Below, piece after piece: positions 1 to 15,762 of a stretch of 64,000 bases of DNA. The stretch is from a bacterium (GTDB taxonomy: Bacteria > Omnitrophota > Gorgyraeia > Zapsychrales > Zapsychraceae): contig JAUIER010000003.1 of the NCBI GenBank assembly GCA_030429765.1, positions 144,402 through 208,401 on the forward strand, given 5' to 3'. The notes beneath the pieces were generated by a model. It was not told where the DNA came from and made no database searches. It saw only the letters and a program-made list of their open reading frames with translations. Both the position numbers and the translations under genes were made by a program. Positions within the stretch are counted from its first letter, which is position 1. Each line of letters starts with the position of its first letter.

Positions 1-269
1 AACTCAACTGGAGTGAACATCTGCCGGCCAATGCCACGCCGCTGCGGATCGGGGGCGATACCGCCATGACAGCCGCCAAGCCGGATGCCGTCGGGGGGAT
101 TGACTTCACCGGTGATCGGCTGAATATCCAGCTCAAACGCGACGCCGACGGAATCCCGCTGCCCATGCCCGTCCAACCCTTACGTCATATCCAGATCGAC
201 GGTCTCGTGCCTGTCATTCTCGACATCCGACCGATTAACGTGTTACCATTGTTTGTGGCTAGGGAGTAG
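1..269 (+). CDS. 3' end of a gene that starts upstream of the window; C-terminal ~60 aa homologous to C-terminus of the giant ORF (40908-52103)
   Basis: Frame 3 is open from nt 3 to TAG at 267-269 (LNWSEHLPANATPLRIGGDTAMTAAKPDAVGGIDFTGDRLNIQLKRDADGIPLPMPVQPLRHIQIDGLVPVILDIRPINVLPLFVARE*). High GC, like the core genome. The tail aligns with the giant protein tail ...DPVGGINFDADLIDLEIRGDHAPIELPFNPDQLQQLRIDGFSPVIIQIAPVTNLPLL. Confidence 0.55.
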   Translation, partial: LNWSEHLPANATPLRIGGDTAMTAAKPDAVGGIDFTGDRLNIQLKRDADGIPLPMPVQPLRHIQIDGLVPVILDIRPINVLPLFVARE

Positions 270-373
270 ATTAGCGGGTCGGATGTGGGGAGTAGCGAAA
301 AGATATTTTTTAGAGAAGTTTAAATTACGGGCCAGGCGGAGTCGCGTTGGTGCGAGAGAACGGTAAGAAGGAC

Positions 374-424
374 GGAGTCGCTTTGAAGCTAGCGACTCCT
401 GCCCGCGATTACTTCGTAATCGCG
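374..424. repeat. Two adjacent perfect hairpins (GGAGTCGCT-8nt-AGCGACTCC and CGCGATTA-5nt-TAATCGCG), part of a cassette-boundary repeat
   Basis: Reverse-complement stems read directly at 374-382/391-399 and 404-411/417-424. No T-tract follows, so this is not a typical intrinsic terminator. Confidence 0.6.
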
Positions 425-461
425 TTAGTGTCAGAACTCCCTAAGGTATAGCAGGGCATAA
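425..461. repeat. Boundary repeat family 'TT(A/G)GTGTCAGAACT(C/A)CC...' copy 1
   Basis: ttagtgtcagaactccctaaggtatagcagggcataa is ~80% identical to 2412-2454 (ttggtgtcagaactacccaaagtacagtattgcaggagtataa). The shorter core 'cctgcccgcga...ttggtgtcag' recurs at 1525-1583 and 1741-1763. Confidence 0.55.
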
Positions 462-499
462 ATTTAGGTCGTAATTCATTATATTAGCGAAGAGGCCTG

Positions 500-545
500 T
501 CCCAGTTTGACCGTTTATGATTAGCCGGCAAGCTGGGGCTGACCC
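500..545 (+). repeat. 46-nt direct repeat (copy 1 of 2; other copy 2938-2983) spanning 17 nt of 5' leader plus the first 10 codons (MISRQ[A/I]GADP)
   Basis: tcccagtttgaccgtttatgattagccggcaaGCtggggctgaccc vs tcccagtttgaccgtttatgattagccggcaaATtggggctgaccc: 44/46 identical. Confidence 0.8.
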
Positions 546-855
546 GTTCCCCGGAATGGTTATATACAATCAATGTGAGTTTGAAGAAACGCAAGATTTC
601 TGCTGGCACGTTAAAGAAGATAATCTGCCTAAACAAGGTGTCTATGAGTTGGCGAAATTATTGAATAAGTATCAACTTCTAGACATAGATATGATTACAT
701 TAAGCAGGCAGGAGTTGCTGGATAAATACAATATCGAGTTTTCCAAAGATCTAAATATAGATGAATTTAATCCCATTGTTGATGAATTAGAGTCAATTGA
801 AGTTGCTATGGTTGATGATATAGAGGAAGGAGATAGTTATTTTATTCATGAGTAA
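517..855 (+). CDS. hypothetical acidic protein (112 aa) with MISRQAGADP N-terminus, in the low-GC island
   Basis: ORF track. Start lies inside the 46-nt repeat. Its stop overlaps the start of the next ORF (ATGAGTAA at 848-855). Confidence 0.45.
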   Translation: MISRQAGADPFPGMVIYNQCEFEETQDFCWHVKEDNLPKQGVYELAKLLNKYQLLDIDMITLSRQELLDKYNIEFSKDLNIDEFNPIVDELESIEVAMVDDIEEGDSYFIHE

Positions 856-1132
856 TCTATACACTTGCCCCTGTTGCGGATATAAGACGTTGAATGAAAA
901 AGCTGGTGGAACATTTGAAATTTGCCCAGTTTGTTTTTGGGAAGATGATCCTGAGCAATTTGAGGATCCCGAATATGTTGGTGGTGCGAATGGGGGCGTC
1001 TCATTGAGGCAAGCACAGAAAAACTTTCTTGAACTTGGTGCCTGTTCAGAAGATATGGTAGACAAGGTAAGAAAGCCTAAAGATTATGACAAGAAAGATC
1101 CAAATTTTAAGTTGATTGGAGAGCCTGAATGA
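848..1132 (+). CDS. cysteine-rich CPCC-family small protein
   Basis: CPCCGYKTLNE...ICPVCFWEDDPEQ...YVGGANGGVSLRQAQ matches the CPCC-domain signature (recognised from memory). Translationally coupled to the preceding ORF. Confidence 0.55.
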   Translation: MSNLYTCPCCGYKTLNEKAGGTFEICPVCFWEDDPEQFEDPEYVGGANGGVSLRQAQKNFLELGACSEDMVDKVRKPKDYDKKDPNFKLIGEPE

Positions 1133-1179
1133 ATTATTGGGACGAAATTCATAGGGTTTAAATAGATTTTGCTCGTTTC

Positions 1180-1425
1180 TTAGTCTTCGGATTCCTTATG
1201 CTGCATAATATTAAAGTAAAGTCTTTTGTTTCGCATAATAACAACCCCGGGTAAAAACCATACGGTTAATACATCAATTGTAAATTCCTTAAAACCTGTG
1301 AATAGCTGAAAAAGTATTCCCGTAACAATCATCGCAACAATGATATGTGACATAAAGATTCCGTGGGATTCGCCTCCCGGAGGTACATTGAGTAATCGAT
1401 CGAGGCATCTCTTACAGAAATCCAA
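1180..1425 (-). CDS. hypothetical small membrane protein (81 aa)
   Basis: ORF track only. One hydrophobic segment (IIVAMIVTGILFQLF). Low-GC island. No homology recognised. Confidence 0.25.
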   Translation of the reverse strand: MDFCKRCLDRLLNVPPGGESHGIFMSHIIVAMIVTGILFQLFTGFKEFTIDVLTVWFLPGVVIMRNKRLYFNIMQHKESED

Positions 1426-1524
1426 AAACCAACCTGTAAGGACCCTAGTTAAGCAAGAATATTTTTGTGTAGATCGAGTTTATTGTTAATTTAGTTTTGA
1501 TGGAAGCTCCGGGGGGGGTACACC

Positions 1525-1583
1525 GAGTCGATCTGAAGCCCGCGGATCCTGCCCGCGACAGCATTTAAAAAAATTGGTGTCAG
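1525..1583. repeat. Boundary repeat family copy (gagtcgatctgaagcccgcggatcctgcccgcgacagcatttaaaaaaattggtgtcag)
   Basis: Aligns with 366-433 (gagtcgctttgaagctagcgactcctgcccgcgatta...ttagtgtcag). Confidence 0.5.
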
Positions 1584-1740
1584 GGTAAATTCAAGTAGCT
1601 AGTGCGAAGTGGGCTTTTGAGATTAATCCAGAATGGAAAAAGGCGGAGGATATATTAAAAATTGCTCAACAGAAAAATAATTTTTAGTAAAGATTATATG
1701 CTGAAGAAGAGGTTTAGATGTTCTGTGATCGCGACAACCT

Positions 1741-1763
1741 GTGGCAGTCGCATTGGTGTCAGG
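1741..1763. repeat. Boundary repeat family, short copy ending in ttggtgtcag
   Basis: gtggcagtcgcattggtgtcag shares the 10-nt core TTGGTGTCAG with 1574-1583 and 2412-2421. Confidence 0.35.
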
Positions 1764-1806
1764 ATCCTTTAAAGAGCAGGGACGCATATGTTAAGAAGGA
1801 GTAATA

Positions 1807-2277
1807 ATGGAGTCTATTGAAGCTATTTCCACGATAATAAAAGAAAATGATGAAATTTCAGACTTTTGTTTGCCTGTAGAGGTGAAAGTAATTTATGAGG
1901 CTGAGAAGGAACTTAATGTGCTACTACCAAATGATTACAGAGAGTTTCTATTAAGATTTGGTTGTGGCAATTTGGGTTCACAAGAAGTTTATGGTGTAGG
2001 GATAAAGCCAGTTGGTATACCTAGTGTCATATGGGCAACTAAAGAACAACGACTACATGAACCAAACTTTCCTCATGAGTATATCCTATTCCATAATAGT
2101 GGTTGTGGAGGTGGGCACTGTTTAGATACCTCAAGGATTTCCGGAGATGTTTGTCCTATAGTACGTTGGGAAATTGGCTGTAATGATAAGTTGCAAGCCG
2201 AAACAATTTCTGATTCTTTTTCGCAATTTATACTTAAAATATTTAAGGATGAACTACAAGGTCGGAATGATGATTAG
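1807..2277 (+). CDS. SMI1/KNR4 (SUKH superfamily) protein, immunity-protein type
   Basis: LPNDYREFLLRFGCGNLG...EYILFHNSG is the SMI1/KNR4 core signature. RBS-like AAGGAG sits 6 nt upstream of the ATG. Confidence 0.7.
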   Translation: MESIEAISTIIKENDEISDFCLPVEVKVIYEAEKELNVLLPNDYREFLLRFGCGNLGSQEVYGVGIKPVGIPSVIWATKEQRLHEPNFPHEYILFHNSGCGGGHCLDTSRISGDVCPIVRWEIGCNDKLQAETISDSFSQFILKIFKDELQGRNDD

Positions 2278-2411
2278 TGACAAATATCAATATTAAATAT
2301 TAGCTAAAAGTAGGATTGGAGAAGTCAAGACCTGCCAGTCAAATATCTAGTAATTGTTAGTATATCTGCAACGAATGCATACTAGTTTTTAAAATATTCC
2401 GTGAATATTAA

Positions 2412-2454
2412 TTGGTGTCAGAACTACCCAAAGTACAGTATTGCAGGAGTATAA
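2412..2454. repeat. Boundary repeat family copy
   Basis: See 425-461. Confidence 0.55.
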
Positions 2455-2849
2455 GCCGAAATACATTCGATAAAACGAAACTACTGTCCCTATTCGGGGG
2501 CTGTCCCGTTACTATTATGCTACCCAAATATTTATTTTATGTTGATGTAGAAGTATCTGCTGGTAAGGGGAATGAGAAAATGCCCGAAGAGTTACTGGGG
2601 GCGTATGTGAATTGTTATACTTTTGCAATCAATAAGGATGAAGCCATATTGAAAGTTAGAGGGTGTTTAGAAGAAGATAACTATAATATAATCAGCATTA
2701 ATGATTGCTATAGAGCAGATTTAGATCAATTTTCCATCGACTATGATGAGTCAACTGGAGAGCCCACGAAAAGAGATATCGAAGAAATACGAGAGTCATC
2801 TGGCGTGTTTTATGCAAATTTCTTTGGGTATGAAAAGGACGAGCAGTGA
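2412..2849 (+). CDS. hypothetical protein (145 aa), cassette ORF
   Basis: ORF track. Begins inside boundary repeat copy 2412-2454. Low GC. Confidence 0.4.
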   Translation: MVSELPKVQYCRSISRNTFDKTKLLSLFGGCPVTIMLPKYLFYVDVEVSAGKGNEKMPEELLGAYVNCYTFAINKDEAILKVRGCLEEDNYNIISINDCYRADLDQFSIDYDESTGEPTKRDIEEIRESSGVFYANFFGYEKDEQ

Positions 2850-2937
2850 TCGTTGGTGAAAACTAAAGACAAAGACTCATAAAATACGGCAACAATCAAG
2901 TTTGGAGCGTAATCCAGTTGATAGCAAATAAGACGTA

Positions 2938-2983
2938 TCCCAGTTTGACCGTTTATGATTAGCCGGCAAATTGGGGCTGACCC
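2938..2983 (+). repeat. 46-nt direct repeat copy 2
   Basis: See 500-545. Confidence 0.8.
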
Positions 2984-3917
2984 AGTAGATTACATTTTAC
3001 CTATGCAGAAAATTAATATACTTATTCAAAAATATGAATTCAATGATGAAGCCTTGATTAAGGAAATCGTCCTACTGGTGCCTAGTCAAGATTTGGTAGA
3101 GCGAATCAATGAATGTTTTCAGAAAGAGAGTGTTTACGATAAGCAAGGTGGACTTATTGAACTTATCCAAGACATTCTTTGTTGCCGAAACGGTTGGGTG
3201 ACGCAACGTTATTCCAACAATTTCCGTCGAACTTTGGATGCATCTTCATTTCCGAATATCCTAAATCAAAAAATAATTACCCATGAAAATCGGATCAATT
3301 ATCACCTGACTAGTTTCTTCAAATATAGTAATAAGAGGTATCTCCCGATATTGCAAAGAGCTTACAAGCATGCATTAAAATATGATCCTTTAGAAGTATC
3401 TATGATTGTGGGAGAAATGTACTGGTTATCCAAGGAGTTTAATTGGAATATAATCAAGAATTTGAGTCGAAGTCAGGATTTTCTGCATCGATGGGCAATA
3501 CTAGACATTTTCGGTGCTATATCCATCAACAGGGATGAGCAATATGAAAAAAAGAAATTGGGTATATTACGCCAGTTGCGAAATGATCCAAATCCGTTTA
3601 TCGCTCAAGAAGCCTCATGGCTCATTTCTGAAAGTCGGTATGTCCAGGCGTATAATAAGGGAATGCCAAAAAGTAAACCAGCAACCATAAATTATAAAAA
3701 GAAGATGCGTCTATACAGTAAGGCAAAGGCAGAAGTCGAACTTAGCTATACTTTTGGGGAAATAAAGGCAAAATACAGCCGCCTCCGAAAATATTTTCCA
3801 GAGACATTTGCTGTTCGTAACGTAATCGAAGGAATACTAATGTTTGGTTGGCAGAAATCGGTTATAGATAAAGATTATGATAAATGGTTAGCGGTGAAAA
3901 TCAAAGATACCATATAG
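2955..3917 (+). CDS. hypothetical protein (320 aa) with MISRQIGADP N-terminus
   Basis: ORF track. N-terminus encoded by the 46-nt repeat. No domain recognised. Confidence 0.5.
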   Translation: MISRQIGADPVDYILPMQKINILIQKYEFNDEALIKEIVLLVPSQDLVERINECFQKESVYDKQGGLIELIQDILCCRNGWVTQRYSNNFRRTLDASSFPNILNQKIITHENRINYHLTSFFKYSNKRYLPILQRAYKHALKYDPLEVSMIVGEMYWLSKEFNWNIIKNLSRSQDFLHRWAILDIFGAISINRDEQYEKKKLGILRQLRNDPNPFIAQEASWLISESRYVQAYNKGMPKSKPATINYKKKMRLYSKAKAEVELSYTFGEIKAKYSRLRKYFPETFAVRNVIEGILMFGWQKSVIDKDYDKWLAVKIKDTI

Positions 3918-3948
3918 GGCAATCGAAATGCTACGAACATTTTTTTTC

Positions 3949-4278
3949 TTACTTTTGATTTAACTTATTGAAGCAATTGTTACATACAATACGACATTCT
4001 TCGCTCAGGGATAGGCCATGGATTTCAATAGATTGACCATTTGCATTAAGTTCGGTTTCCAAATAATACTCTCCCGAAGGGAGTGGAGAAAAGCAGGCTT
4101 CACAAATTTCTGGAAACAGGTTTTTACACCAATCTTTACGGGTTTTGAAGCAAATGCTACAAACATAAAGATATGAGATAGTTTTTCTTGCATTGGTAAC
4201 TTCTGAAAATTGCCAAAAATTCACGGCAGTTAAATTTCCGCATATATCTGTATTCTTTCCACATTGTTCACAGTTCAT
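3949..4278 (-). CDS. hypothetical cysteine-rich protein (109 aa)
   Basis: Many CxxC pairs (CEQCGK, CSIC, CEAC, CNNC). Low-GC island. Weak RBS. Confidence 0.35.
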   Translation of the reverse strand: MNCEQCGKNTDICGNLTAVNFWQFSEVTNARKTISYLYVCSICFKTRKDWCKNLFPEICEACFSPLPSGEYYLETELNANGQSIEIHGLSLSEECRIVCNNCFNKLNQK

Positions 4279-4419
4279 TTTTTGAAGTGTATAAGATTTA
4301 TTTGAGGACCTATTATATCATCAAATTTGGTATTACTACTAATCAGCATGATGAAAATAGTCAATCTCTGGGGACTATTCAGTATTCCCCACCCCCCAAA
4401 TTTGTGCTATAATCCCGGC

Positions 4420-4722
4420 ATGGCTGAACGATTTGTACGGGTTTTCTCTAAATTGGATCTCTCCAAGATCACCCCGCAATTATTGATTTACGGTGATATT
4501 TCCGGGACGTGCGCCGGATGTCAGAAGATCGACATCAAGCTCAATCAGCCGGTGTGTCCCGAGTGCAAGAGCGAGTTCAAATTCATCGCCTTTCGCAATA
4601 TCCGGGCCCATTTACCCAAATTACAGCAGTTATCCGCGCAGCGGCCGAGTGTCACGATCATCGATTACGATGATTACAAGCGTGAACTCAGCGCGTCGAA
4701 GGCCGCGGATTTTTTTAAATAG
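4420..4722 (+). CDS. hypothetical zinc-ribbon protein (~100 aa)
   Basis: CAGCQK...CPECK zinc-ribbon pattern. GC rises at the internal ATG 4420 (MAERFVRV...), so that is taken as the start. Confidence 0.45.
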   Translation: MAERFVRVFSKLDLSKITPQLLIYGDISGTCAGCQKIDIKLNQPVCPECKSEFKFIAFRNIRAHLPKLQQLSAQRPSVTIIDYDDYKRELSASKAADFFK

Positions 4723-4764
4723 GATCCATTCCCCGCGAGTGGCCGAACCCCACAGGAGCTTACC

Positions 4765-5907
4765 GTGATCAACAAAGACCGTCTCATCAAGCTAACCCAA
4801 AAACTCATTCGCTTTGATTCATCCAACCCGCCGGGGCTGGAATACGAATGCGCCAAGTTTATCGAAAAGGATATGCGGTCGCTGGGGCTCGAGGTTAAGA
4901 CGGTGAGTTACGCTCCCAAGCGTCCGAATGTGATCGCCACGTTAAAGGGAACACTGCCGCGCGCCCAGGCTAAAAAGGAAGCGATTCTGCTGACACCGCA
5001 TTTCGATACCGTACCGGTAGGCAGCGGATGGAAGTACAAGCCATTTGGCGGCGAGATCGTCGGCGGCAAGATCTATGGACGCGGGACGAGTGATGATAAA
5101 GGCAACACGGCGGCGTGTATGGAGGTGATGCGATCGCTGGTCGAAGACGGGGTCCGTCTGAAAAAAGATGTGATCATGGCCGCGACGGTGGATGAGGAGA
5201 CCGGATCGCAGATGGGGATCATTCCATTGCTGGATAAAAAAGTCCTCACACCCAAATTCGCGCTGGTGGTGGACTCCACGGAATTCGACGCGATGATCGT
5301 GCAGAAAGGTGTTCTGCAGTTTCGCGTCCAGATCTTCGGTAAAAAAGCACACAGTGCCTATAACTGGCGCGGTGACAGCGCGATCGAAACCGCGGCGCGA
5401 TGTATCAATCGCCTCAAGAAAATCAAATTTCCACACAAAAAACACAAACTCTTACATGCCCCGTCGTTGAATGTCGGTGTGATAAACGGGGGTGACAAGG
5501 TCAATATGGTCGCGGACCTCTGCGAGTTTACCGTGGATCATCGTTTCTGTCCGGGGACGAATTATCGCGAACCGCTCAAATTGATCAAAGAGACCCTGGC
5601 CAAAGAGACCAAGAAATTCAAGATCATCCTCGATGATATCCAGCAGCCGTATGAGATCAAGGCCGATCATCCGTACGTGAAGACCTTTCTGGATGTCAAC
5701 AAACGGATGAAGGCGCCGGCGGGGATTAAAGGCAGTGAAGGCGCGACCGTGATCACCTTTTTTCAAAAGCACAAGATTCCGGCATTTGCCACCGGCTGGG
5801 GCGCGCATGGCACGCTGCATGCCAATGACGAACACATCTACATCAAATCGCTATATAAGGGAACGCAGGTGTTGGAGGCGTACGTCAAGGAATACGATCA
5901 GCTGTAG
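4765..5907 (+). CDS. M20-family metallopeptidase (ArgE/DapE-type deacylase)
   Basis: DSSNPPG...TPHFDTVP...GRGTSDDKG and DEETG metal-binding motifs. GTG start with AGGAG 7 nt upstream. Confidence 0.85.
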   Translation: MINKDRLIKLTQKLIRFDSSNPPGLEYECAKFIEKDMRSLGLEVKTVSYAPKRPNVIATLKGTLPRAQAKKEAILLTPHFDTVPVGSGWKYKPFGGEIVGGKIYGRGTSDDKGNTAACMEVMRSLVEDGVRLKKDVIMAATVDEETGSQMGIIPLLDKKVLTPKFALVVDSTEFDAMIVQKGVLQFRVQIFGKKAHSAYNWRGDSAIETAARCINRLKKIKFPHKKHKLLHAPSLNVGVINGGDKVNMVADLCEFTVDHRFCPGTNYREPLKLIKETLAKETKKFKIILDDIQQPYEIKADHPYVKTFLDVNKRMKAPAGIKGSEGATVITFFQKHKIPAFATGWGAHGTLHANDEHIYIKSLYKGTQVLEAYVKEYDQL

Positions 5908-6003
5908 ACCGATGATCGGGGTTATAAAAAATCCCGATCTTTGTAATATTCGGGCGTGTGAATTTGTGGTAGCCTAGTAAAAACTCTAAGGAAAGGCGAT
6001 ATT

Positions 6004-6924
6004 ATGGACTTAAAGGGCGAAGTCGTATTTTCATCCGGACGGCACGGAGATTATGATATCTGGTCGATCAACATGGAGAGCAAACAGGTCTCGCAGTTGA
6101 CCGAGGGATCCACCAAGAATGATTATCCGCGCTGGTCGCCGGACGGATCACAGATCGTGTATATTTCTCATCAGACCGAAGTGCCGGAGATCTGGGTGAT
6201 GGAGGCCAACGGAGACAATCCGCGGCAGGTCACCAAGAAGAACAAATGGCACGCCTCACCGTCATGGTCGCCGGACGGGCAACGCCTGGTGTTCTGCGCC
6301 AATTACGACGCGAATTTTGATGTGTACACCATCAAACTGGATGGATCGGATCTGCAGCGCGTGACCGATCATGAGGGATCGGATTTCACGCCCGAGTTTT
6401 CGCCGGACGGCAAGTCGATCGTCTACACCTCGCAGCAGGCCGGTAATGATGATATCTGGATCTTTGATATCGAATCCGGCAAATCCCGTCAGATCACCGA
6501 ATACACGGGCCGGGACTACAGCCCGACATTTTCGCCCGACGGTAAAATTCTCGCCTATGTCTCCGGGGATATCAACAAAGACGGCTCTGAGAATCTGGAG
6601 ATCTTCACGCTGGAGTTTGATACCAATACCACCTATCAGGTCACCAAAAATCCCGGCGCCGACCGTTTTGTGCGCTGGTCGCCTGACGGTAAATATCTGG
6701 TGTACTGCGGGGCCAAGGGATCGGGGCCGGAACGGCTGACCGTCCTGGAATATGAATCCGGCAAGTACAAGCAGGTGGATTTTGACCGCACCAAACTGGA
6801 CTTCGAAATGGAGGTCAAACCCAGCGGATTCGGTTTGTTCTCGTTGCTGCCGGAAAGTATCCGCCGCAAATTTTATCCCGACGATTATTTCGGTAATGAG
6901 CGCTATCCCGACTGGAAATATTAA
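6004..6924 (+). CDS. PD40/WD40-like beta-propeller repeat protein (TolB-like repeats, no signal peptide)
   Basis: Repeated W/F-SPDG motifs (RWSPDGSQIVY, SWSPDGQRLVF, FSPDGKSIVY, FSPDGKILAY, RWSPDGKYLVY). Confidence 0.8.
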   Translation: MDLKGEVVFSSGRHGDYDIWSINMESKQVSQLTEGSTKNDYPRWSPDGSQIVYISHQTEVPEIWVMEANGDNPRQVTKKNKWHASPSWSPDGQRLVFCANYDANFDVYTIKLDGSDLQRVTDHEGSDFTPEFSPDGKSIVYTSQQAGNDDIWIFDIESGKSRQITEYTGRDYSPTFSPDGKILAYVSGDINKDGSENLEIFTLEFDTNTTYQVTKNPGADRFVRWSPDGKYLVYCGAKGSGPERLTVLEYESGKYKQVDFDRTKLDFEMEVKPSGFGLFSLLPESIRRKFYPDDYFGNERYPDWKY

Positions 6925-6935
6925 TTCCTGTCCCT

Positions 6936-7628
6936 ATGTATCGAAGCATTGATTCCATCAAGATCATCAGCACGATCGCCATCCTCGATGAGCGCATCCG
7001 CAAGCGTTTCCCCAATTCCGGGCTGTCACGTGTCAGCCGTGAGCTGCTGCAGGTGGGGCGCGAGGCCAAGTTCAAAAGCGAGGCGATCTGCAAACCCAAT
7101 CTGTATCTGCGGTTTTTTGCGACCATCGCGATTCTGATCATTATCGTCGGGCTGCACGTCAGTCTGGCGCAGGTTCCGCTGGCCCATGACCACTTGAGCG
7201 TGGCCGAGTTTATCCAGGTGCTGGAGGCCGGCCTCAATGATATCGTGCTGATTGGCGCGGCCATCTTTTTTGTGGTGACATTTGAAACGCGCATCAAGCG
7301 CGAGAAATGCCTGCAGCTGCTGCACGAACTGCGGGTACTGGCCCACGTGGTTGACATGCATCAGCTGTCCAAGGATCCCGACAAGATGCTTGGAAATCCC
7401 GACGATTACACTTACCCGCCCGGTGAACGTCTCAATAGCTTTCAACTCAACCGCTATCTGGACTATTGTTCGGAGATGCTGTCGATGATCGGCAAGCTCG
7501 CCGCGCTGTACGTCCAGAATTTCAGTGATCCGGTGGTGATCGCAGCGGTCAATGAAATCGAGACCCTGACCACTGGATTGTCCCGCAAGATCTGGCAGAA
7601 AATCATGATCCTGCACACATACAAGTAA
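6936..7628 (+). CDS. hypothetical membrane protein
   Basis: Hydrophobic segments and normal composition. The overlapping antisense ORF 7026-7637 has antisense-type composition. Confidence 0.45.
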   Translation: MYRSIDSIKIISTIAILDERIRKRFPNSGLSRVSRELLQVGREAKFKSEAICKPNLYLRFFATIAILIIIVGLHVSLAQVPLAHDHLSVAEFIQVLEAGLNDIVLIGAAIFFVVTFETRIKREKCLQLLHELRVLAHVVDMHQLSKDPDKMLGNPDDYTYPPGERLNSFQLNRYLDYCSEMLSMIGKLAALYVQNFSDPVVIAAVNEIETLTTGLSRKIWQKIMILHTYK

Positions 7629-7714
7629 TCCAACCAAGATTTTGACTTCTCATCTAAATTGTGGTTGAATAGAGGCTTCCATGGAGGCTCTCCTAATCTC
7701 TACGAGGAATGGTT

Positions 7715-8893
7715 ATGAAATATCCAGATAAAAACGGACATTTTGGTGAATTCGGCGGACGCTTTCTGCCGGAAACGCTGATTGCGTTGCATGACGAGCT
7801 CGAAGGCGTGTTTAAGTCCGCCCTCAAGGATCCCCAATTCAAAAAAGAGTTTCAATATTATCTCAATGAATACGCCGGCCGGCCGACCAAGCTGTATTAC
7901 GCGGAGCGCCTAAGCCAGCGGCTGAAGACGCTCAAGGTGTACCTCAAGCGGGAGGACCTGCTGCACACCGGCGCGCATAAGATCAACAACACGCTCGGTC
8001 AGATTTTATTGGCCAAGCGCATGGGCAAGACGCGCATTATTGCCGAGACCGGGGCGGGCCAGCACGGGGTAGCCACGGCGACGGCGGCGGCCCTAATGGG
8101 GCTGGAATGCGTGATCTACATGGGTGAGGAAGATACCCGTCGTCAATCACTGAATGTGTTCCGGATGAAATTGCTCGGCGCCCAGGTGGTGCCGGTCACC
8201 AGCGGTTCAAGGACACTCAAAGACGCGATGAATGAAGCGATACGCGATTGGGTGACAAACGTCGACAAAACATTTTATATCATCGGATCGGTGGCCGGCG
8301 CGCATCCGTATCCGCTCATCGTCCGTGAATTTCAGGCGGTGATCGGACGCGAAGCCCGGCGACAGTTTCTCAAGGCCGAAAACAAGCTGCCGAATTATCT
8401 GATTGCCTGCGTGGGCGGCGGCAGCAACGCGATGGGATTGTTTCACGCCTTCTATAAAGATAAATCAGTCAAGATGATCGGCGTCGAAGCGGCCGGTCAT
8501 GGGCTCAACACCGTCGAGCATTCCGCGCCGTTAGCCAAAGGAAAGATCGGTGTGCTGCACGGCAGTAAGAGTGATTTGCTGCAGACCGAGGATGGACAGA
8601 TCCAGGTCGCGCATTCGGTCGCGGCGGGACTGGATTACCCGGGCGTCGGGCCGGAACATTCGTTTTACAAGAAATCCGGACGGGCCGAATATGTGGCGGT
8701 TGAAGATCGCGAGGCCATTAAAGGGCTCAAGCTTTTATCCGAGACCGAAGGGATTATCCCCGCGCTGGAAACCGCGCATGTGTTCGCGTATCTTCCCAAG
8801 CTCGCGCGCAAACTCAAACGTCAGCAATCGATCATTGTCTGTCTGTCAGGCCGCGGCGATAAAGACATGGAACAAATCAAAGAATTAATTTAG
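7715..8893 (+). CDS. trpB: tryptophan synthase beta chain
   Basis: [12 protein letters not shown]-lysine motif, GGGSNA. GAGGA 6 nt upstream of ATG 7715. Confidence 0.95.
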
Positions 8894-8927
8894 GACGAAG
8901 TTTTCGTCATAACCGACAGGTGCATTT

Positions 8928-9722
8928 ATGAACCGAATTGATCAGACGTTCAGCCGATTGAAACAGGATAAACGAAAGGCGTTTATCGCGTACATCACCG
9001 CGGGCGATCCCGATCTTAAGACCACCGAGCAATTGGCGCTGGCGCTGGAACAGTCAGGGGTCGATATCCTGGAACTCGGCGTGCCGTTTTCCGATCCGTT
9101 GGCCGACGGGCCGACCATTCAGGCGGCATCACAGCGCGCGCTGGCCGCGGGGACAACCTTGCCCAAGGTCCTGGATCTCGTCAAAAAGATCCGCCGGACG
9201 TCCAACATGCCGCTGGCGCTGATGATGTATTACAATCAGATTCACAGCTACGGTGAGCAAAAGTTTGTGAAGATGGTCGCCGATTGCGGTGTCGACGGGT
9301 TGATCGTTCCGGATCTTCCCCCGGAAGAGGCCACGGATTTGATCAAATATGCCAAGGCCCATGATGTGTCGACGGTATTTTTTATGGCGCCGACCACCAA
9401 GCCCGAGCGCATGACCAAGATTGCCCGGCATTCCACCGGCTTCATCTATTATGTGTCACTGACCGGGGTGACCGGCGCGCGTCAGGCCATTCCGTCATCG
9501 GTGACCCGCAAGATTCGCGAGGCCAAAAAGATTACCGACAAGCCGATCTGTATCGGATTCGGTATCTCAACCCCTGAGCAGATCCGCACGATGAAAAAGG
9601 TGGCGGATGGTGTGATTGTGGGAAGCGCGATCATCAATCAGATCGTCAAACATGCCGGTCAAAGCGACCTGGTGCCCAAGGTGTCCAAGTTTGTCCGGAC
9701 GTTGAGTCGCGCGCTGGATTAA
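8928..9722 (+). CDS. trpA: tryptophan synthase alpha chain
   Basis: ILELGVPFSDPLADGPTIQ and GFGIS motifs. Directly downstream of trpB. Confidence 0.93.
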   Translation: MNRIDQTFSRLKQDKRKAFIAYITAGDPDLKTTEQLALALEQSGVDILELGVPFSDPLADGPTIQAASQRALAAGTTLPKVLDLVKKIRRTSNMPLALMMYYNQIHSYGEQKFVKMVADCGVDGLIVPDLPPEEATDLIKYAKAHDVSTVFFMAPTTKPERMTKIARHSTGFIYYVSLTGVTGARQAIPSSVTRKIREAKKITDKPICIGFGISTPEQIRTMKKVADGVIVGSAIINQIVKHAGQSDLVPKVSKFVRTLSRALD

Positions 9723-9767
9723 ATCAAATTCCCATCAAACCCAGATTTCAGAAACGGAAAATTATTT

Positions 9768-11042
9768 ATGCAAAAAATAGAACGACTCAGTAACGGATTA
9801 CGGATTATCACGCAGAGTATGAAGGACCGCGAGAGCGCGTCGATCGGGATCTGGGTTGGTGTCGGCGGACGTTACGAAGATGACCGGGTCAAAGGCGCCA
9901 CGCATTTTTTGGAACATATCGTCTTTAAGGGCAGCGAGAAATACACCTGCGAGTCGATCAAGGAGAGTATAGAAGGCGTCGGCGGAACGCTCAACGCGTT
10001 TACATCGGAAGAGCAGACCTGCTTTTACGCCAAGATTCCCGCGGCGCATATCAACAAGACATTTGATGTGCTGGCGGATATGGTCTTTTTTCCCAATATC
10101 AAGGCGTCGGATGTCCGCAAAGAACGCACGGTGATCATTGAAGAGATCAAGATGTACCATGACCTGCCGCAGTATTTTGTGCTGGAACTCCTTGATGGAT
10201 TGATCTGGCCTGATCATCCGTTGGGCAAACAGCTGGCCGGGACCATTGATTCGGTGTCGGGGCTCAGTTCCAAGGATCTCAAGCGGTTTCATCATTCGTA
10301 CTACCGGCCGGGTAATATCGCGATATCGGCCTGCGGAAAGATCGATCATGACGCGTTTGTGCGGATGGCCAAACGCAAGCTCGGCAAGATCAAGTCGGAC
10401 GGCGAATTCAATTATCTGCCGATCACCGGTCTGCAGTCCAAGGCGCGGGTGAATTTTTACCGCAAGGACATCGAGCAGATGCATCTGGCGCTGGGCATGC
10501 CCGGTTACGACGAGAATCATCCCGATCGGCACACGCTGGGGTTGCTGAGCATCATCATGGGCGGGAATATGTCGTCGCGGCTGTTTGAAGAGGTGCGGGA
10601 AAAGAAGGGATTGGCCTACTCAATCGGGACCTTGCATAAAACAATGCACGATACCGGCGTGTTTATGGTACGCGCGGGTGTGGATAATCAAAAGATTGTC
10701 AGCGCGGTGGGGTTGATCCTCAAGGAATTCCGTAAGATCCGCAAAAACGGTGTGACGGCCGGCGAATTCAAGCGCGCCAAGGACTATATGCTCGGACAAA
10801 TCCTGCTGGGACTGGAAGATTCGATGGAGCACATGCTCTGGTTAGGCGAATCCATGATCGCCCGCGACCGCGGCCGCAGCATCAAGGATGTGATCAAGGC
10901 GCTCAATAAGATCAAAATTGCGGATATTCAGCGCGTGGCGCGCGATATTCTCGATGAAAAACGCTATAATCTGGCGATTGTCGGGCCGGTAACTGACCAG
11001 CAGGACACAGAGTTACGCAAATTGCTCGATGCGACGGTTTAA
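9768..11042 (+). CDS. M16-family zinc peptidase (pitrilysin-like)
   Basis: HFLEHIVFKG inverted zinc-binding motif (HxxEH). Confidence 0.88.
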   Translation: MQKIERLSNGLRIITQSMKDRESASIGIWVGVGGRYEDDRVKGATHFLEHIVFKGSEKYTCESIKESIEGVGGTLNAFTSEEQTCFYAKIPAAHINKTFDVLADMVFFPNIKASDVRKERTVIIEEIKMYHDLPQYFVLELLDGLIWPDHPLGKQLAGTIDSVSGLSSKDLKRFHHSYYRPGNIAISACGKIDHDAFVRMAKRKLGKIKSDGEFNYLPITGLQSKARVNFYRKDIEQMHLALGMPGYDENHPDRHTLGLLSIIMGGNMSSRLFEEVREKKGLAYSIGTLHKTMHDTGVFMVRAGVDNQKIVSAVGLILKEFRKIRKNGVTAGEFKRAKDYMLGQILLGLEDSMEHMLWLGESMIARDRGRSIKDVIKALNKIKIADIQRVARDILDEKRYNLAIVGPVTDQQDTELRKLLDATV

Positions 11043-11124
11043 GCCCCAATTTACAATTGACAACGGAATCCATATCCGTTAGACTCAAAATAACTCTAAT
11101 CATCTTGAACAAGAAGGAGAACCA

Positions 11125-11298
11125 ATGGCCGAAGAATTATCATTTTACGATGTAAAAACCAAGTCAAAATTCAATTCTTCTGATTACGAAGTCCGTGAAA
11201 AGAGCGGACGCTTTTTTGCTGTCACTAAATCTCCTCAAGGAACTCACGAATGCTGGCGAGTTCTGGGTAAAGATCAAGCTGCAAAATTAAAGAAATAA
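11125..11298 (+). CDS. small hypothetical protein (57 aa), not in the ORF track
   Basis: ATG 11125 has AAGGAG 7 nt upstream. Translation MAEELSFYDVKTKSKFNSSDYEVREKSGRFFAVTKSPQGTHECWRVLGKDQAAKLKK, stop TAA 11296-11298. Confidence 0.4.
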   Translation: MAEELSFYDVKTKSKFNSSDYEVREKSGRFFAVTKSPQGTHECWRVLGKDQAAKLKK

Positions 11299-11491
11299 GC
11301 CCTCAAATGCCTCTTTGCGCGGGACATCATCTTCGCATGGATGGCTTTCGACATAGGCCTGAATACGCCGAAATTACGTTTCAAGAAGGAATCCTGCTAT
11401 AAAAAAAGTTTCACTTACTTCTAGAACCATTGCCAAGAAAATTGCAGAATTCGCAGATGATAAGAAAGCGATCGATATCGTCGTCCTGGAC

Positions 11492-11779
11492 ATGCGTCAG
11501 CTTGTCAATTTCTGCGACTATTTTGTCGTTTGTTCCGGAAACACCGACCGGCAGGTCAAGGCGATTGCCGACGGGATAGACGAAGGTTTATACGGACTGG
11601 GTATCAAGCTGGGATCCAAAAACGCGGTCAAGCAATCCGACTGGGTTGTATTTGACACCGGGGATATTGTGATTCACGTGTTTGCCAAAAAGACACGTGA
11701 ATTTTACAATCTGGAGTACCTGTGGCAGGATGCCAAACCGGTCAAGTGGCGGAAGGAACCGCGCACACCGTCCGACTAA
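11492..11779 (+). CDS. rsfS: ribosomal silencing factor RsfS (Iojap); true start probably upstream at a non-canonical codon
   Basis: CSGNTDRQVKAIADGI...DWVVFDTGDIVIHVF matches RsfS. The in-frame region 11357-11491 encodes RsfS-like N-terminal sequence (..KKAIDIVVLDMRQL) but has no ATG/GTG/TTG. Confidence 0.8.
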   Translation: MRQLVNFCDYFVVCSGNTDRQVKAIADGIDEGLYGLGIKLGSKNAVKQSDWVVFDTGDIVIHVFAKKTREFYNLEYLWQDAKPVKWRKEPRTPSD

Positions 11780-11870
11780 AACCTCGGAACCAAATTTTTA
11801 AATCGTATTATGGTCGCAAGTGTCACATGCCCCGCTCTGCAGGCGGATGTGTACGCTTGTGATTTTTTAT

Positions 11871-13598
11871 ATGTTATCGACCTACAAAGACAACATTCAG
11901 GAATTCATCCAATCGACGCTTCAGGCGTCGTTTCCCGACGTGGCCGAATGGCCGGCCATTGAACTCGAGGTGCCGGCGGACAAAAAGCACGGACATTTTT
12001 CGTGCAATATCGCACTGCGTTGCGCCAAACCGCTTCGCAAGGCCCCGCCGGTGATCGCCGCGGATTTTGTCGGCGCGCTGGAACAGGCCCTCAACGGATC
12101 TAATCTCAACCACATTATTGACAAGATCGAGGTCAAGAATCCCGGATTCATCAACTTTTTTCTGACCAGTCAGTCACTCACTGCGACGATCGCTGAGATT
12201 TATGCGCAGGGGGAGGCGTTTGGTCAGGTTGATATCGGTCAGGGACGCAAGATCGGAATTGAGTTTGTCAGCGCTAATCCGACCGGACCGTTAAGCATCG
12301 CGCACGCGCGACAAGCGGCGGTGGGAGACGCGCTTGGAAATATCCTCAAGGCCATCGGATTTGACGTGACCAAAGAATACTACGTCAATGACGGCGGCAA
12401 TCAGATCCGTATGCTCGGTCAGTCACTGAAACTGCGAATGCTGGAGATGGTCCAGCCGGATACGGAGTTTCCCGAGGATTGCTATCAAGGCGAATACATG
12501 AAGGATATCGCGCGGGGGGTGTTTGAGTTTAAAGATCAGGTCACCGAGAAGACGCTCGCCGAGCTCAGCGATTGCCAGGCGGATATTTCCGCGTTTGACA
12601 CAGATTTTGTGAACGGCTATTCGGATGAGCAGTTTCAGGATTGGTCCAAGTCGTTGATCATGGACGATATCAAAAAAGACCTGGCGGATTTCAATGTGCA
12701 TTTTGATGTGTGGTCCCTGGAGTCTGAGGTCGCCTCACCGGAAAAGATCGTGGGATTGATCGAACGTCTCACGGCGGACGGGTATCTCTACGAAAAAGAC
12801 GGCGCGTTATGGTTTAAATCAACAGACTTCGGCGACGACAAGGATCGGGTGATCCGTAAATCAGACAGCACATATACGTATCTAACGCCGGACATTGTGT
12901 ACCATAAAAACAAATTTGAGCGCGGGTTTGATCAGGTGATCGATATTCTCGGCCCGGACCATCACGGATACATCGCGCGGATCAAGGCGTCGGCGCAGGC
13001 GCTGGGACGGCAGGCCGATGACCTGCAGGTCTTGATTGTGCAGTTAGCGACCATTTTCCGCGACGGGCAGGCTGTGTCGATGTCGACACGCCGCGGGCAG
13101 TATGTGAGCCTGCGGGAGATCCTCGACGAGGTCGGGGCCGACGTGGCCCGCTATTTCTTCCTGATGCGTCATATCAAGGCCCATCTGGAATTTGATCTGG
13201 AACTGGCCAAGAAAGAATCCTCGGAGAATCCGGTGTATTACATTCAGTATGCGTACGCCCGGATTAACAGTATCAACAAGAAGGCGTCGGAATCTGAGAT
13301 CGACTTGGAACGTCAGGATTTTTCCCGATTGTCGACCGAAGAAGAGCTGGATCTGGCCAAGCAGTTGGGTGGATACAGCGACGCGTTGGCGTATTGCCAT
13401 CAGCAATTGGATCCGTATCCGCTGGTCAATTATCTATTCGAGCTGGCCACGGTGTTTCACAAATTTTATGACCGGCAGCGTGTCATCGACAGCGACACGC
13501 AGTTGTCCGCGCAGCGGCTGGGGCTGGTCAATGCCGTCAAGACCGTGTTAGGGAACGGATTGGCTTTGCTGGGAATCAGCCGGCCGGACTCGATGTAG
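11871..13598 (+). CDS. argS: arginine--tRNA ligase
   Basis: SANPTGPLSIAHARQA (HIGH-type region) and MSTRRG (KMSKS-equivalent typical of ArgRS). Start moved to MLSTYKDNIQEF. Confidence 0.92.
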   Translation: MLSTYKDNIQEFIQSTLQASFPDVAEWPAIELEVPADKKHGHFSCNIALRCAKPLRKAPPVIAADFVGALEQALNGSNLNHIIDKIEVKNPGFINFFLTSQSLTATIAEIYAQGEAFGQVDIGQGRKIGIEFVSANPTGPLSIAHARQAAVGDALGNILKAIGFDVTKEYYVNDGGNQIRMLGQSLKLRMLEMVQPDTEFPEDCYQGEYMKDIARGVFEFKDQVTEKTLAELSDCQADISAFDTDFVNGYSDEQFQDWSKSLIMDDIKKDLADFNVHFDVWSLESEVASPEKIVGLIERLTADGYLYEKDGALWFKSTDFGDDKDRVIRKSDSTYTYLTPDIVYHKNKFERGFDQVIDILGPDHHGYIARIKASAQALGRQADDLQVLIVQLATIFRDGQAVSMSTRRGQYVSLREILDEVGADVARYFFLMRHIKAHLEFDLELAKKESSENPVYYIQYAYARINSINKKASESEIDLERQDFSRLSTEEELDLAKQLGGYSDALAYCHQQLDPYPLVNYLFELATVFHKFYDRQRVIDSDTQLSAQRLGLVNAVKTVLGNGLALLGISRPDSM

Positions 13599-13615
13599 TC
13601 AGGAGTTGCACGTTT

Positions 13616-15301: not shown

Positions 15302-15303
15302 AA

Positions 15304-15340
15304 ATAGACACACCGTTTGAGGTGTGTCTAAATTTTATTT
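15304..15340. terminator. bidirectional intrinsic terminator between recJ (+) and rpmB (-)
   Basis: Perfect 9-bp stem AGACACACC-gtttga-GGTGTGTCT, flanked by A-run upstream and T-runs downstream. Confidence 0.65.
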
Positions 15341-15394
15341 TGCTGAAATGTAATGAAATTTTTAAGCGGGACGAATTCAGGTCAGGATCGACGA

Positions 15395-15622
15395 TTAAGC
15401 TTTAACGATCTTGCCTTTTTGAATACAACTGACACAAACATGTTCACGTTTGATCGTGCCGTTCAGGTTGATCTTGATGCGCTGAAGGTTCGGGTAGAAT
15501 CGACGTAATGTCTTACCGATAATCTTGGAACCCGCACCACCTGTACGTTTGATTTGTCCGCGTCGTTTATATTTGTTGCCCGGTTGGGCGCCTTTTGAAC
15601 AGATTACACAAACTTTTGCCAT
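15395..15622 (-). CDS. rpmB: 50S ribosomal protein bL28
   Basis: MAKVCVICSKG...GNK..R...KRTG...PNLQRIKI...VCVSCIQKGK matches the zinc-ribbon L28 pattern. Confidence 0.8.
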   Translation of the reverse strand: MAKVCVICSKGAQPGNKYKRRGQIKRTGGAGSKIIGKTLRRFYPNLQRIKINLNGTIKREHVCVSCIQKGKIVKA

Positions 15623-15762
15623 TTCCAAATCCTTTGCTAGTCTTACGTTTTGAATATAAGAGTATAATTAAAATCACAGGATTGTCAAGGTTAAATTTGC
15701 ATGGTGGGTTGATCGCCTAACATGCTCGTATATATAAGATTACATCCAAAAAGGAGATTCGC

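What the first reader, a model, noticed from the sequence alone, without database searches (positions are those of the whole stretch)
280..4420. Low-GC island of small cassette ORFs including immunity-protein types (SUKH/SMI1-KNR4, CPCC)
GC drops sharply between the end of ORF 1-269 and ~4420. The island holds seven small ORFs, among them a clear SMI1/KNR4 (SUKH) protein, a family established as immunity proteins of polymorphic toxin systems. It also holds a CPCC cysteine-rich protein and several unassignable proteins. The island sits immediately downstream of a gene whose C-terminus is shared with the giant protein. That is the layout of an immunity-gene or orphan-cassette array following a secreted toxin or effector gene.
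Basis: partly seen in the sequence, partly recalled or inferred. Interest (0 to 1): 0.7.

Follow-up and report, generated by a model that had tools for sequence, protein, structure and literature searches.

The report
Acquired islet of orphan immunity-type genes
A 4-kb stretch of foreign, low-GC DNA inserted between two conserved genes of an Omnitrophota bacterium carries small genes of two families known to neutralise bacterial toxins, but nothing ties it to the neighbouring gene as a toxin, so it is a fairly ordinary strain-variable immunity-gene islet.

Summary
GC is 36-38% over about 445-4395, against 50-55% elsewhere in the window. GC3 of the island ORFs is 0.24-0.38, against 0.62 for host genes. 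SUKH (1807-2277) and CPCC (848-1132) are confirmed. Elsewhere, CPCC genes sit directly after CdiA and Rhs toxin genes.

The host is an Omnitrophota. In its closest available relative, the upstream-type gene and the zinc-ribbon gene (4420-4722) lie about 57 nt apart. No island ORF occurs in any relative, so the island is an insertion.

It consists of two low-GC blocks, 445-1489 and 1563-4395, separated by a GC-rich patch. In an independent assembly, block 2 begins at the same base, 1563, but follows a host-like methyltransferase gene. Related 85-125-nt sequences precede three ORFs. There are no canonical attC sites, and no integrase ORF lies in the island or its immediate flanks.

The link to an upstream toxin is not supported. 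The shared C-terminus is a conserved terminal module found in 3,746 protein clusters, and no toxin domain appeared in 17 proteins scanned.

Best reading: a horizontally acquired, strain-variable islet of orphan immunity-type genes, resembling a polyimmunity locus. It is a new member of a known kind, of modest interest.

The parts
3..269 (+). 3' end of the upstream host gene (GC 0.60, GC3 0.71). It ends in the conserved C-terminal module GGIDF...IDGLVPVIL.I.P. This is the left flank, not part of the island.
   Evidence: The module is shared with the giant protein and with 3,746 protein clusters, always at the extreme C-terminus.
270..444 (+). Spacer of normal GC (0.50). It holds three degenerate 23-nt tandem repeats (337, 373, 415), two strong hairpins, and repeat R_A1 (372-408, ...CCTGCCCGCGA).
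   Evidence: repeat families D2 and D3; fold; GC. No Rfam match.
424..548 (+). Repeat element E1. It runs from the TTAGTGTCAGAAC motif to GGGGCTGACCC. It includes a hairpin at 501-537 that encloses the ATG at 517.
   Evidence: repeat D1; alignments; fold; E1 vs E3 z 7.9; E1 vs E4 z 9.9.
517..855 (+). Small acidic protein (pI 4.1). The family is real, but the first about 23 residues are not conserved and lie in repeat E1. Function unknown. It overlaps the CPCC start by 8 nt.
   Evidence: homologue P0008, 46% identity; pI, overlap; AF2 model too poor to use.
848..1132 (+). CPCC cysteine-rich protein, an immunity-type family.
   Evidence: PF14206 E 2e-32; PDB 8EY4 chain I, E 6e-17; genomic contexts.
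1180..1425 (-). Possible small membrane protein (81 aa, two hydrophobic stretches). Unverified.
   Evidence: No family match. Its length is within chance for AT-rich DNA.
1490..1562 (+). GC-rich patch (0.616) separating the two low-GC blocks. It contains R_A2 (1522-1558), a copy of 372-408.
   Evidence: (D3, 81% over 37 nt).
1563..1600 (+). Left end of block 2 (ATTTAAAAAAATTGGTGTCAGGG, partial element E2a). The Logan contig L001 joins a methyltransferase gene at exactly this base.
   Evidence: L001 741-2147 equals window 1563-2969 at 99.9%. L002 starts at 1568.
1752..1806 (+). Partial element E2b (TTGGTGTCAGGA motif) followed by an AGGAG ribosome-binding site ahead of the SUKH gene.
1807..2277 (+). 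SUKH / SMI1-KNR4 protein (acidic, pI 4.7), an immunity-type family.
   Evidence: PF14567, PF09346, PF14568; PDB 2icg and 2prv/YobK.
2409..2516 (+). Repeat element E3, with the same 5' part as E1 and a short hairpin in place of the long one.
2517..2849 (+). 110-aa acidic ORF (pI 4.2). It is called as a gene in two Logan contigs. No family assigned.
2854..2986 (+). Repeat element E4, with the same 3' part as E1. A 32-nt core (2938-2969) is identical to 500-531 and forms the same hairpin around an ATG.
3003..3917 (+). 304-aa basic, all-helical protein, weakly like ARM/HEAT repeats. The true start is M17 of the 320-aa ORF. Function unknown.
   Evidence: only homologue P0002, 55%, starts at M17; pLDDT 58.8; best Foldseek E 0.13.
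3949..4278 (-). 109-aa ORF with four CxxC pairs, a possible double zinc ribbon. Unverified. It is not called as a gene in the Logan contig L003.
4396..4722 (+). Right flank. It comprises a conserved TGTGCTATAAT promoter-like box and the host zinc-ribbon gene (4420-4722, GC3 0.63), which is syntenic with the M20 peptidase gene in all relatives.

Best explanation
The segment at about 445-4395 is horizontally acquired DNA. It is inserted in the short spacer between a host gene that ends in a common Omnitrophota C-terminal module and the conserved zinc-ribbon/M20-peptidase genes.

It was built from at least two low-GC blocks, 445-1489 and 1563-4395. Each is preceded by related GC-rich or 'TTGGTGTCAG' junction sequences, and block 2 behaves as a discrete unit.

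Its cargo is mainly small acidic proteins. Two belong to families that act as immunity proteins of polymorphic toxins (CPCC and SUKH). The islet therefore most likely works as a set of orphan immunity genes. Its products would bind and neutralise toxin domains delivered by other bacteria, with no cognate toxin encoded next to them.

Shown: foreign composition; absence from relatives; family membership of two genes; a different left neighbour in another assembly.

Inferred: the immunity function in this organism; the role of the four or five unassigned ORFs; assembly by successive insertions.
For: - Composition: GC 0.36-0.38 against 0.50-0.55, and GC3 0.24-0.38 against 0.615.
- Synteny: in L004 the upstream-type gene and the zinc-ribbon gene are about 57 nt apart. 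No island ORF matches any of L004-L010 or L022-L027.
- Family assignments: SUKH and CPCC; PDB matches 2prv/YobK and 8EY4 chain I.
- CPCC genes follow a CdiA-type gene (hemagglutinin repeats plus PT-VENN) in pO113 and an Rhs gene in pVPS129. 8EY4 is cited as an E. coli toxin-immunity complex in PMC13068155.
- Four + strand ORFs are acidic, pI 4.1-4.7.
- Strain variability: L001 joins a host-like methyltransferase gene (GC3 0.63) to window base 1563. The 112-aa ORF at 517-855 and the CPCC ORF are on record only in the source assembly.
- These features match those listed for heterogeneous polyimmunity loci in PMC3482391: unrelated immunity families, mostly one orientation, and differences between strains.
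Against: - Only 2 of about 7 ORFs are assigned to immunity families. The rest have no family match, and three of them may not be genes.
- Intergenic gaps are 153-381 nt, larger than the 'typically small' spacing described for polyimmunity loci. Two ORFs are on the other strand.
- SUKH domains also occur outside conflict systems.
- No toxin-delivery pressure on this organism has been shown.
- The left junction with the upstream gene is seen only in the source assembly.
Confidence: 0.55

Rival explanations
1. The island is the cognate immunity gene plus orphan cassettes of the upstream gene, which would be a secreted polymorphic toxin or effector.
For: - Immunity-type families lie downstream and on the same strand as a large-protein-type gene.
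- The C-terminal module sits at the extreme C-terminus of thousands of proteins, as a sorting or export signal would.
- Some members have signal peptides (P0014 and the giant protein).
Against: - The C-terminus is conserved, not variable.
- No toxin, PT-VENN or Rhs-type domain appears in 17 family proteins scanned.
- There is a 247-nt gap before the first ORF.
- No orphan fragments are homologous to the upstream gene.
- The counterpart in L004 lacks the array.
- The SUKH block follows a methyltransferase gene in another assembly.
- The shared 'MISRQxGADP' is a non-coding repeat.
Confidence: 0.08
2. An integron-like or other site-specific cassette array. The repeated 85-125-nt E elements and the TTGGTGTCAG motif would be recombination sites, used by a recombinase encoded elsewhere to capture cassettes at the 3' ends of host genes.
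For: - Related sequences precede three + strand ORFs: E1 vs E3 z 7.9, E1 vs E4 z 9.9.
- Four copies of TTRGTGTCAGR, all on the + strand, lie within 2 kb.
- Homologues of two cargo genes elsewhere do not show it. DNA upstream of P0002 in L012 has no E-like sequence. A profile of E1, E3 and E4 found no copy in any fetched locus, including L012 and L031-L034.
- Block 2 has the same left end in two genomic contexts.
- GC-rich patches resembling the target are duplicated at 372-408 and 1522-1558.
- In L007 the same intergenic site holds a group II intron remnant, so the spot receives mobile DNA.
Against: - There are no attC core pairs (RYYYAAC...GTTRRRY) in the island.
- The ends of E show no dyad symmetry.
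- No recombinase ORF lies in the island or its immediate flanks.
- E3 and E4 are not significantly alike.
- No further copies occur in 289 kb of window plus loci, or in viral contigs.
- With only three full copies, plain duplication or homologous recombination explains the repeats as well.
Confidence: 0.15
3. A miscellaneous horizontally transferred islet with no coherent function. SUKH and CPCC would be incidental cargo and several ORFs would be non-coding debris.
For: - Most ORFs have no family match, and three are within chance length.
- The gene caller skipped 3949-4278.
- The CPCC protein is 65% identical to Bacillales plasmid proteins, which indicates promiscuous transfer.
Against: - Two independent immunity-type families lie within 1 kb of each other.
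- The small ORFs are consistently acidic.
- Homologues exist for 517-855 and 3003-3917.
Confidence: 0.2

Closest known systems
Heterogeneous polyimmunity loci (Zhang, de Souza, Anantharaman, Iyer, Aravind 2012, Biol Direct 7:18; PMC3482391)
   Same: Unrelated immunity-type families (SUKH, CPCC) are clustered without an adjacent cognate toxin. The genes run mostly in one orientation. Content differs between closely related strains, and the DNA is foreign.
   Different: - Only two ORFs are assignable, which is below the paper's 'extended' threshold of four immunity genes.
- Spacers are long (153-381 nt) and carry repeats.
- No adjacent XerC/D-type recombinase was seen.
- The host phylum (Omnitrophota) is outside the four phyla listed there for extended loci.
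CdiA-CT/CdiI and Rhs-CT/RhsI toxin-immunity modules with orphan cassettes
   Same: CPCC proteins occupy the immunity position after CdiA (pO113) and Rhs (pVPS129) genes. SUKH proteins such as YobK are immunity proteins (the YobK role is from my own knowledge; the PDB match is).
   Different: - No CdiA or Rhs gene is present here.
- There is no VENN or PxxxxDPxGL junction.
- There are no orphan toxin fragments.
- The upstream gene's C-terminus is a conserved module.
Chromosomal integron cassette arrays / CALINs
   Same: Small, mostly co-oriented ORFs of foreign composition are separated by related 85-125-nt repeats, and content varies between strains.
   Different: There are no attC core sites and no hairpin symmetry. 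No IntI was seen. Repeat similarity is patchy.
Tandem accretion of integrase-less islands (CIME-type elements) at the 3' end of a host gene
   Same: Two blocks lie in tandem just after the 3' end of a gene, with duplicated junction sequences (372-408 and 1522-1558). Block 2 is found at the 3' end of another host gene in L001. The comparison itself rests on my own knowledge of ICESt-type accretion.
   Different: No att core, integrase or excision product has been shown. The repeats are short and imperfect.

Membership tests
Polymorphic toxin locus (toxin plus cognate immunity plus orphan cassettes) | The upstream gene carries a variable C-terminal toxin domain after a conserved pre-toxin junction | tested here: not met
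   The visible C-terminus is a conserved module found in 3,746 clusters. There is no Pfam or NCBIfam match. No toxin or PT domain appears in 17 family proteins. The N-terminal bulk of the gene lies outside the window.
Polymorphic toxin locus (toxin plus cognate immunity plus orphan cassettes) | The immunity gene lies immediately downstream of the toxin gene (overlapping or a few nt away) | tested here: not met
   The gap to the first ORF is 247 nt, and that ORF is unassigned. For contrast, the gap is 12 nt in pVPS129 and the genes overlap in pO113.
Polymorphic toxin locus (toxin plus cognate immunity plus orphan cassettes) | Orphan toxin fragments share the junction sequence with the main toxin gene | tested here: not met
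   tblastn of the upstream fragment against the window hits only itself and the giant gene. The shared 'MISRQxGADP' has an in-frame stop just upstream and is absent from homologues.
Heterogeneous polyimmunity locus | Tandem genes from several unrelated immunity families (four or more for an 'extended' locus) | tested here: inconclusive
   Two are assigned (SUKH, CPCC). The 304-aa protein is weakly HEAT/ARM-like. Three acidic or Cys-rich ORFs are unassigned.
Heterogeneous polyimmunity locus | Same orientation and small intergenic distances | tested here: inconclusive
   Five of seven ORFs are on the + strand. One pair overlaps by 8 nt, but the other gaps are 153-381 nt.
Heterogeneous polyimmunity locus | Content differs between strains or close relatives | tested here: met
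   The island is absent from L004-L010. L001 has a different left neighbour. Block 1 ORFs are on record only in the source assembly.
Heterogeneous polyimmunity locus | Products neutralise toxins | not testable with these tools
   This needs co-expression or binding assays.
Integron cassette array / CALIN | attC sites with R''/R' core sites and a folded imperfect palindrome | tested here: not met
   No RYYYAAC-N40-130-GTTRRRY pair occurs on either strand of 1-5000. The folds show no end-to-end pairing.
Integron cassette array / CALIN | IntI tyrosine recombinase next to the array (not required for a CALIN) | tested here: inconclusive
   No recombinase match appears among the ORFs of 1-5907. The region upstream of the window is unseen, and the rest of the window was not scanned.
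SUKH / SMI1-KNR4 superfamily | Significant match to the family profiles over the full domain | tested here: met
   PF14567 68 bits, PF09346 58 bits and PF14568 56.5 bits, all above their cut-offs. PDB 2icg and 2prv match at 1e-8.
CPCC cysteine-rich family (PF14206) | Significant full-length match with the CPCC motif | tested here: met
   111 bits against a cut-off of 24.5, covering 73 of 75 profile positions. The sequence has CPCCGYK. PDB 8EY4_I matches at 6e-17.
Group II intron remnant (as at the same site in L007) | Match to domain V/VI covariance models | tested here: not met
   L007 matches RF02001 (54.6 bits) and RF00029 (42 bits). Window 270-560 has no intron match at E<=10. Its alignment score to L007 is within the shuffle range.

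The most novel reading that the evidence does not exclude
The TTGGTGTCAG/E elements may mark a non-canonical, integron-like capture system in Omnitrophota. Discrete low-GC cassettes, here carrying immunity-type genes, would be inserted site-specifically at the 3' ends of host genes. The recombinase would be encoded elsewhere and would use sites unrelated to attC.
Probability: 0.12. Interest if true: 0.65.

Novelty: new member of a known kind. Interest (0 to 1): 0.3.

Why it matters
If the reading is right, an Omnitrophota carries orphan immunity genes acquired from outside its lineage. Omnitrophota are ultra-small, uncultured bacteria discussed in the literature as possible predators or epibionts. 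The CPCC protein is 65% identical to Bacillales plasmid proteins.

This would suggest that such cells are exposed to contact-dependent or secreted toxins of other bacteria. It would also extend polyimmunity-type loci to a phylum not listed for them in 2012. That is a modest extension, not a new principle.

The more interesting loose end is mechanistic. The same block occurs with an identical left end after two different host genes, and repeated junction sequences are present. Both hint at a site-directed insertion mechanism that could be tested on the many new complete Omnitrophota genomes.

Tried and rejected
- Rfam over the whole window (gathering thresholds), over 1-5000 and over 270-560 (E<=10): no credible family.
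- tRNA or tmRNA as an integration target: none in the window.
- Group II intron remnant in the window, prompted by a real one at the same site in L007: not supported.
- Canonical attC sites: none.
- Sigma-70 promoter and terminator scans: not above shuffles.
- PADLOC and PHROGs: only a weak SUKH-like hit and families of unknown function.
- The E motif and the hairpin pattern in viral contigs: 0 hits.
- An nhmmer profile of E1, E3 and E4 against 289 kb of window plus loci: no new copy.
- The REP-like palindrome of L007 (GGTCAGTTTGGTC): not shared with the window.
- Metagenome scan anchored on the M20 gene: six loci, none with an informative upstream region.
- Retrieval of the complete upstream gene: failed. 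The word-based homologue search found only four distant proteins, and the NCBI contig is not in the position index.
- AF2 models of the 304-aa and 112-aa proteins: low confidence (pLDDT 58.8 and 56.4). The fold search gave only non-significant helical-repeat hits.
- tblastn of 2517-2849 and 3949-4278 against plasmids: one marginal hit (E 0.02) and none.

Full report
**1. The observation**

GC falls from 0.56 (1-400) to 0.34-0.41 between about 401 and 4600, and returns to 0.50-0.58 afterwards. No other 1-kb bin in the 64-kb window is below 0.44.

At finer scale the region is a mosaic:
- 270-444: GC 0.50.
- 445-1489: GC 0.377.
- 1490-1562: GC 0.616.
- 1563-4395: GC 0.361.

Third-position GC is 0.24-0.38 in the island ORFs. 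It is 0.615 in 19 host genes, 0.63 in the zinc-ribbon gene at 4420-4722, and 0.71 in the upstream fragment. The compositional island is therefore real. Its right edge lies just before the zinc-ribbon gene.

Pfam confirms SUKH at 1807-2277 (PF14567 E 1e-18; PF09346; PF14568) and CPCC at 848-1132 (PF14206 E 2e-32). Nothing else is assigned. The partial ORF 3-269 shares its last about 70 residues with the 3,731-aa protein at 40908-52103 (39% identity, E 5e-12).

In shuffles of this AT-rich sequence, stop-free runs up to about 131 codons occur by chance. The shorter unassigned ORFs therefore need independent support.
- 517-855 has it: a homologue, P0008, at 46% identity.
- 2517-2849 is called as a gene in two Logan contigs but has no homologue.
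- 3949-4278(-) has four CxxC pairs but is not called as a gene.
- 1180-1425(-) has no support.

**2. Organism and synteny**

The M20 peptidase at 4765-5907 finds relatives only in Omnitrophota MAGs, at 63-79% identity.

In every relative, a zinc-ribbon gene directly precedes the M20 gene. In the closest relative, L004, a gene ending in the same C-terminal module stops about 57 nt before the zinc-ribbon gene. The TGTGYTATAAT box in front of that gene is conserved with window 4396-4412. In L005 and L009, trpF lies upstream instead.

In L007 the spot holds three things: a fragment of the C-terminal module, a terminator, and a truncated group II intron (RF02001 54.6 bits, RF00029 42 bits).

No island ORF has a tblastn match in any of these loci. 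The island is therefore an insertion into a short spacer that has also received other mobile DNA in this lineage.

**3. Internal anatomy**

The non-coding stretches in the first 3 kb of the island (270-2990) are related to one another.

An 86-nt repeat (460-545 and 2898-2983, 77% identical) has a 32-nt identical core. That core folds as a hairpin enclosing an ATG. However:
- There is a stop codon two codons upstream.
- The only homologue of the 320-aa ORF starts at its M17.
- The homologue of the 112-aa ORF has a different N-terminus.

The shared N-terminus is therefore part of a non-coding repeat, not a protein motif.

The motif TTRGTGTCAGR occurs four times within 2 kb, all on the + strand. 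Alignment shows 85-125-nt elements ahead of three ORFs: E1 424-548, E3 2409-2516 and E4 2854-2986. E1 is significantly like both E3 (z 7.9) and E4 (z 9.9). E3 and E4 are not significantly like each other.

A 37-nt GC-rich sequence ending in CCTGCCCGCGA occurs at 372-408 and again at 1522-1558, inside the GC-rich patch that splits the island.

**4. Strain variation**

Exact-protein look-ups found short Logan contigs from two sequencing runs.
- L003 is 100% identical to window 2940-15907.
- L001, from the same run, is 99.9% identical to window 1563-2969. To its left it carries a methyltransferase gene with host-like codon usage (GC1/2/3 0.58/0.38/0.63). The join falls exactly at window base 1563, so the methyltransferase ORF reads into the island sequence.
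- L002, from another run, starts at 1568.

The 112-aa and CPCC proteins of block 1 are on record only in the source assembly.

Block 2 thus has the same left end in two contexts, and block 1 is variable. I could not tell which of three explanations applies: a second copy, a strain difference or a deletion. The DNA upstream of the window was not retrievable.

**5. What the genes are**

SUKH matches the structures 2icg and 2prv (B. subtilis YobK) at E 1e-8. That YobK is the immunity partner of the YobL toxin is from my own knowledge.

CPCC matches PDB 8EY4 chain I and 8EY3 (E 6e-17). 8EY4 is referred to as an E. coli toxin-immunity complex in PMC13068155. Three genomic contexts agree:
- In E. 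coli pO113 a CPCC gene starts at the stop of an ORF of at least 1,661 aa with hemagglutinin repeats and a PT-VENN domain, i.e. a CdiA-type toxin.
- In Vibrio pVPS129 a CPCC gene lies 12 nt after an Rhs gene.
- In a P. aeruginosa plasmid a CPCC gene sits among an endonuclease fragment and transposases.

The window's CPCC protein is 65% identical to Bacillales plasmid proteins. That points to transfer across phyla.

Four + strand ORFs are acidic, pI 4.1-4.7. The 304-aa protein is basic and all-helical, with weak, non-significant ARM/HEAT-like matches. HEAT repeats are listed among immunity types in PMC3482391, but this is only a hint.

PADLOC and PHROGs add nothing.

**6. The upstream gene**

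A profile of the shared C-terminus finds 3,746 cluster representatives (E<=1e-3). In all 150 best matches listed, the module lies at or within about 35 residues of the C-terminus, in proteins of 65 to 3,731 aa.

Domains attached to the module in the scanned proteins:
- A J domain in P0005.
- HTH arrays, kinase, Fic, methyltransferase and HATPase domains in the giant protein.
- Histidine phosphatase, receiver, cNMP-binding and PP-binding domains in other members.
- No Pfam match at all in most of the rest.

No toxin or pre-toxin domain was seen in 17 proteins scanned.

This is the reverse of polymorphic-toxin architecture, where the N-terminus is conserved and the C-terminus varies. The module may be a sorting or export signal. 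That is an inference and is outside this finding.

**7. Interpretation**

The best-supported reading is a horizontally acquired, strain-variable islet of orphan immunity-type genes. It is closest to the heterogeneous polyimmunity loci of Zhang et al. 2012, and was assembled from at least two blocks.

An integron-like capture mechanism remains possible (about 0.12-0.15). It lacks attC sites, a visible recombinase, and further copies of the repeats.

I rate this a new member of a known kind, interest 0.3.

Noticed in passing
window 3-269 and 51756-52001; proteins P0003-P0155: An about-70-aa module (GGIDF..L.IQIKRDG.G.PLP...Q....I.IDGLVPVIL.I.P) with no Pfam model. It ends 3,746 protein clusters of 65-3,731 aa. 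In the 150 best matches it always lies at or near the C-terminus. It follows very different domains: J, HTH, kinase, Fic, receiver, cNMP-binding and phosphatase. It looks like an uncharacterised C-terminal sorting or export signal of Omnitrophota.
   Followed up: partly
window 40908-52103: A 3,731-aa protein with a signal-like N-terminus and a conserved N-domain (also in P0014). It also has an HATPase-like region, several XRE-type HTH domains, and methyltransferase, kinase-like and Fic-like domains, plus the C-terminal module. This is an unusual mix of cytoplasmic-type domains on a possibly exported giant protein.
   Followed up: partly
L007 9239-9459 (Omnitrophota MAG DAOWBD010000002.1): A heavily truncated group II intron lies right after a terminator, at the same intergenic site as the window's island. 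It has a 5' GTGCG and matches Rfam RF02001 and RF00029 (domains V-VI). It is followed by two REP-like palindromes (GGTCAGTTTGGTC arms); the arm core AAACTGACC occurs 7 times in the 19-kb locus.
   Followed up: partly
L001 1-780 (Logan ERR3428548): A host-like class I methyltransferase gene whose last codons and stop lie inside island sequence. It joins at window base 1563. Either a second insertion site or a deletion variant would explain this.
   Followed up: partly
window 848-1132: The CPCC protein is 60-65% identical to proteins on Metabacillus, Mesobacillus and Peribacillus plasmids. That is far closer than expected between phyla.
   Followed up: no
window 501-537 and 2939-2975: An identical 32-nt core forms a 12-13-bp hairpin with an ATG in its loop. 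The two base differences just 3' of the identical core (GC to AT) keep the pairing. It could be a regulatory or recombination structure.
   Followed up: partly
window 4420-9722 versus L005, L007 and L009: The trp genes are split here. trpB and trpA follow the zinc-ribbon, M20-peptidase, beta-propeller and 230-aa genes. In relatives, trpF or DAHP synthase lies directly upstream of the zinc-ribbon gene. The small zinc-ribbon gene is strictly linked to the M20 (DapE/ArgE-type) gene in all 13 relatives in which the DNA upstream of the M20 gene is visible.
   Followed up: no
L035 (Pseudoalteromonas spongiae plasmid, 113016-123345): The only, marginal, match to ORF 2517-2849 (E 0.02, 25% identity) lies in a run of small co-oriented genes (GNAT, hypotheticals) that looks like a cassette array.
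   Followed up: no
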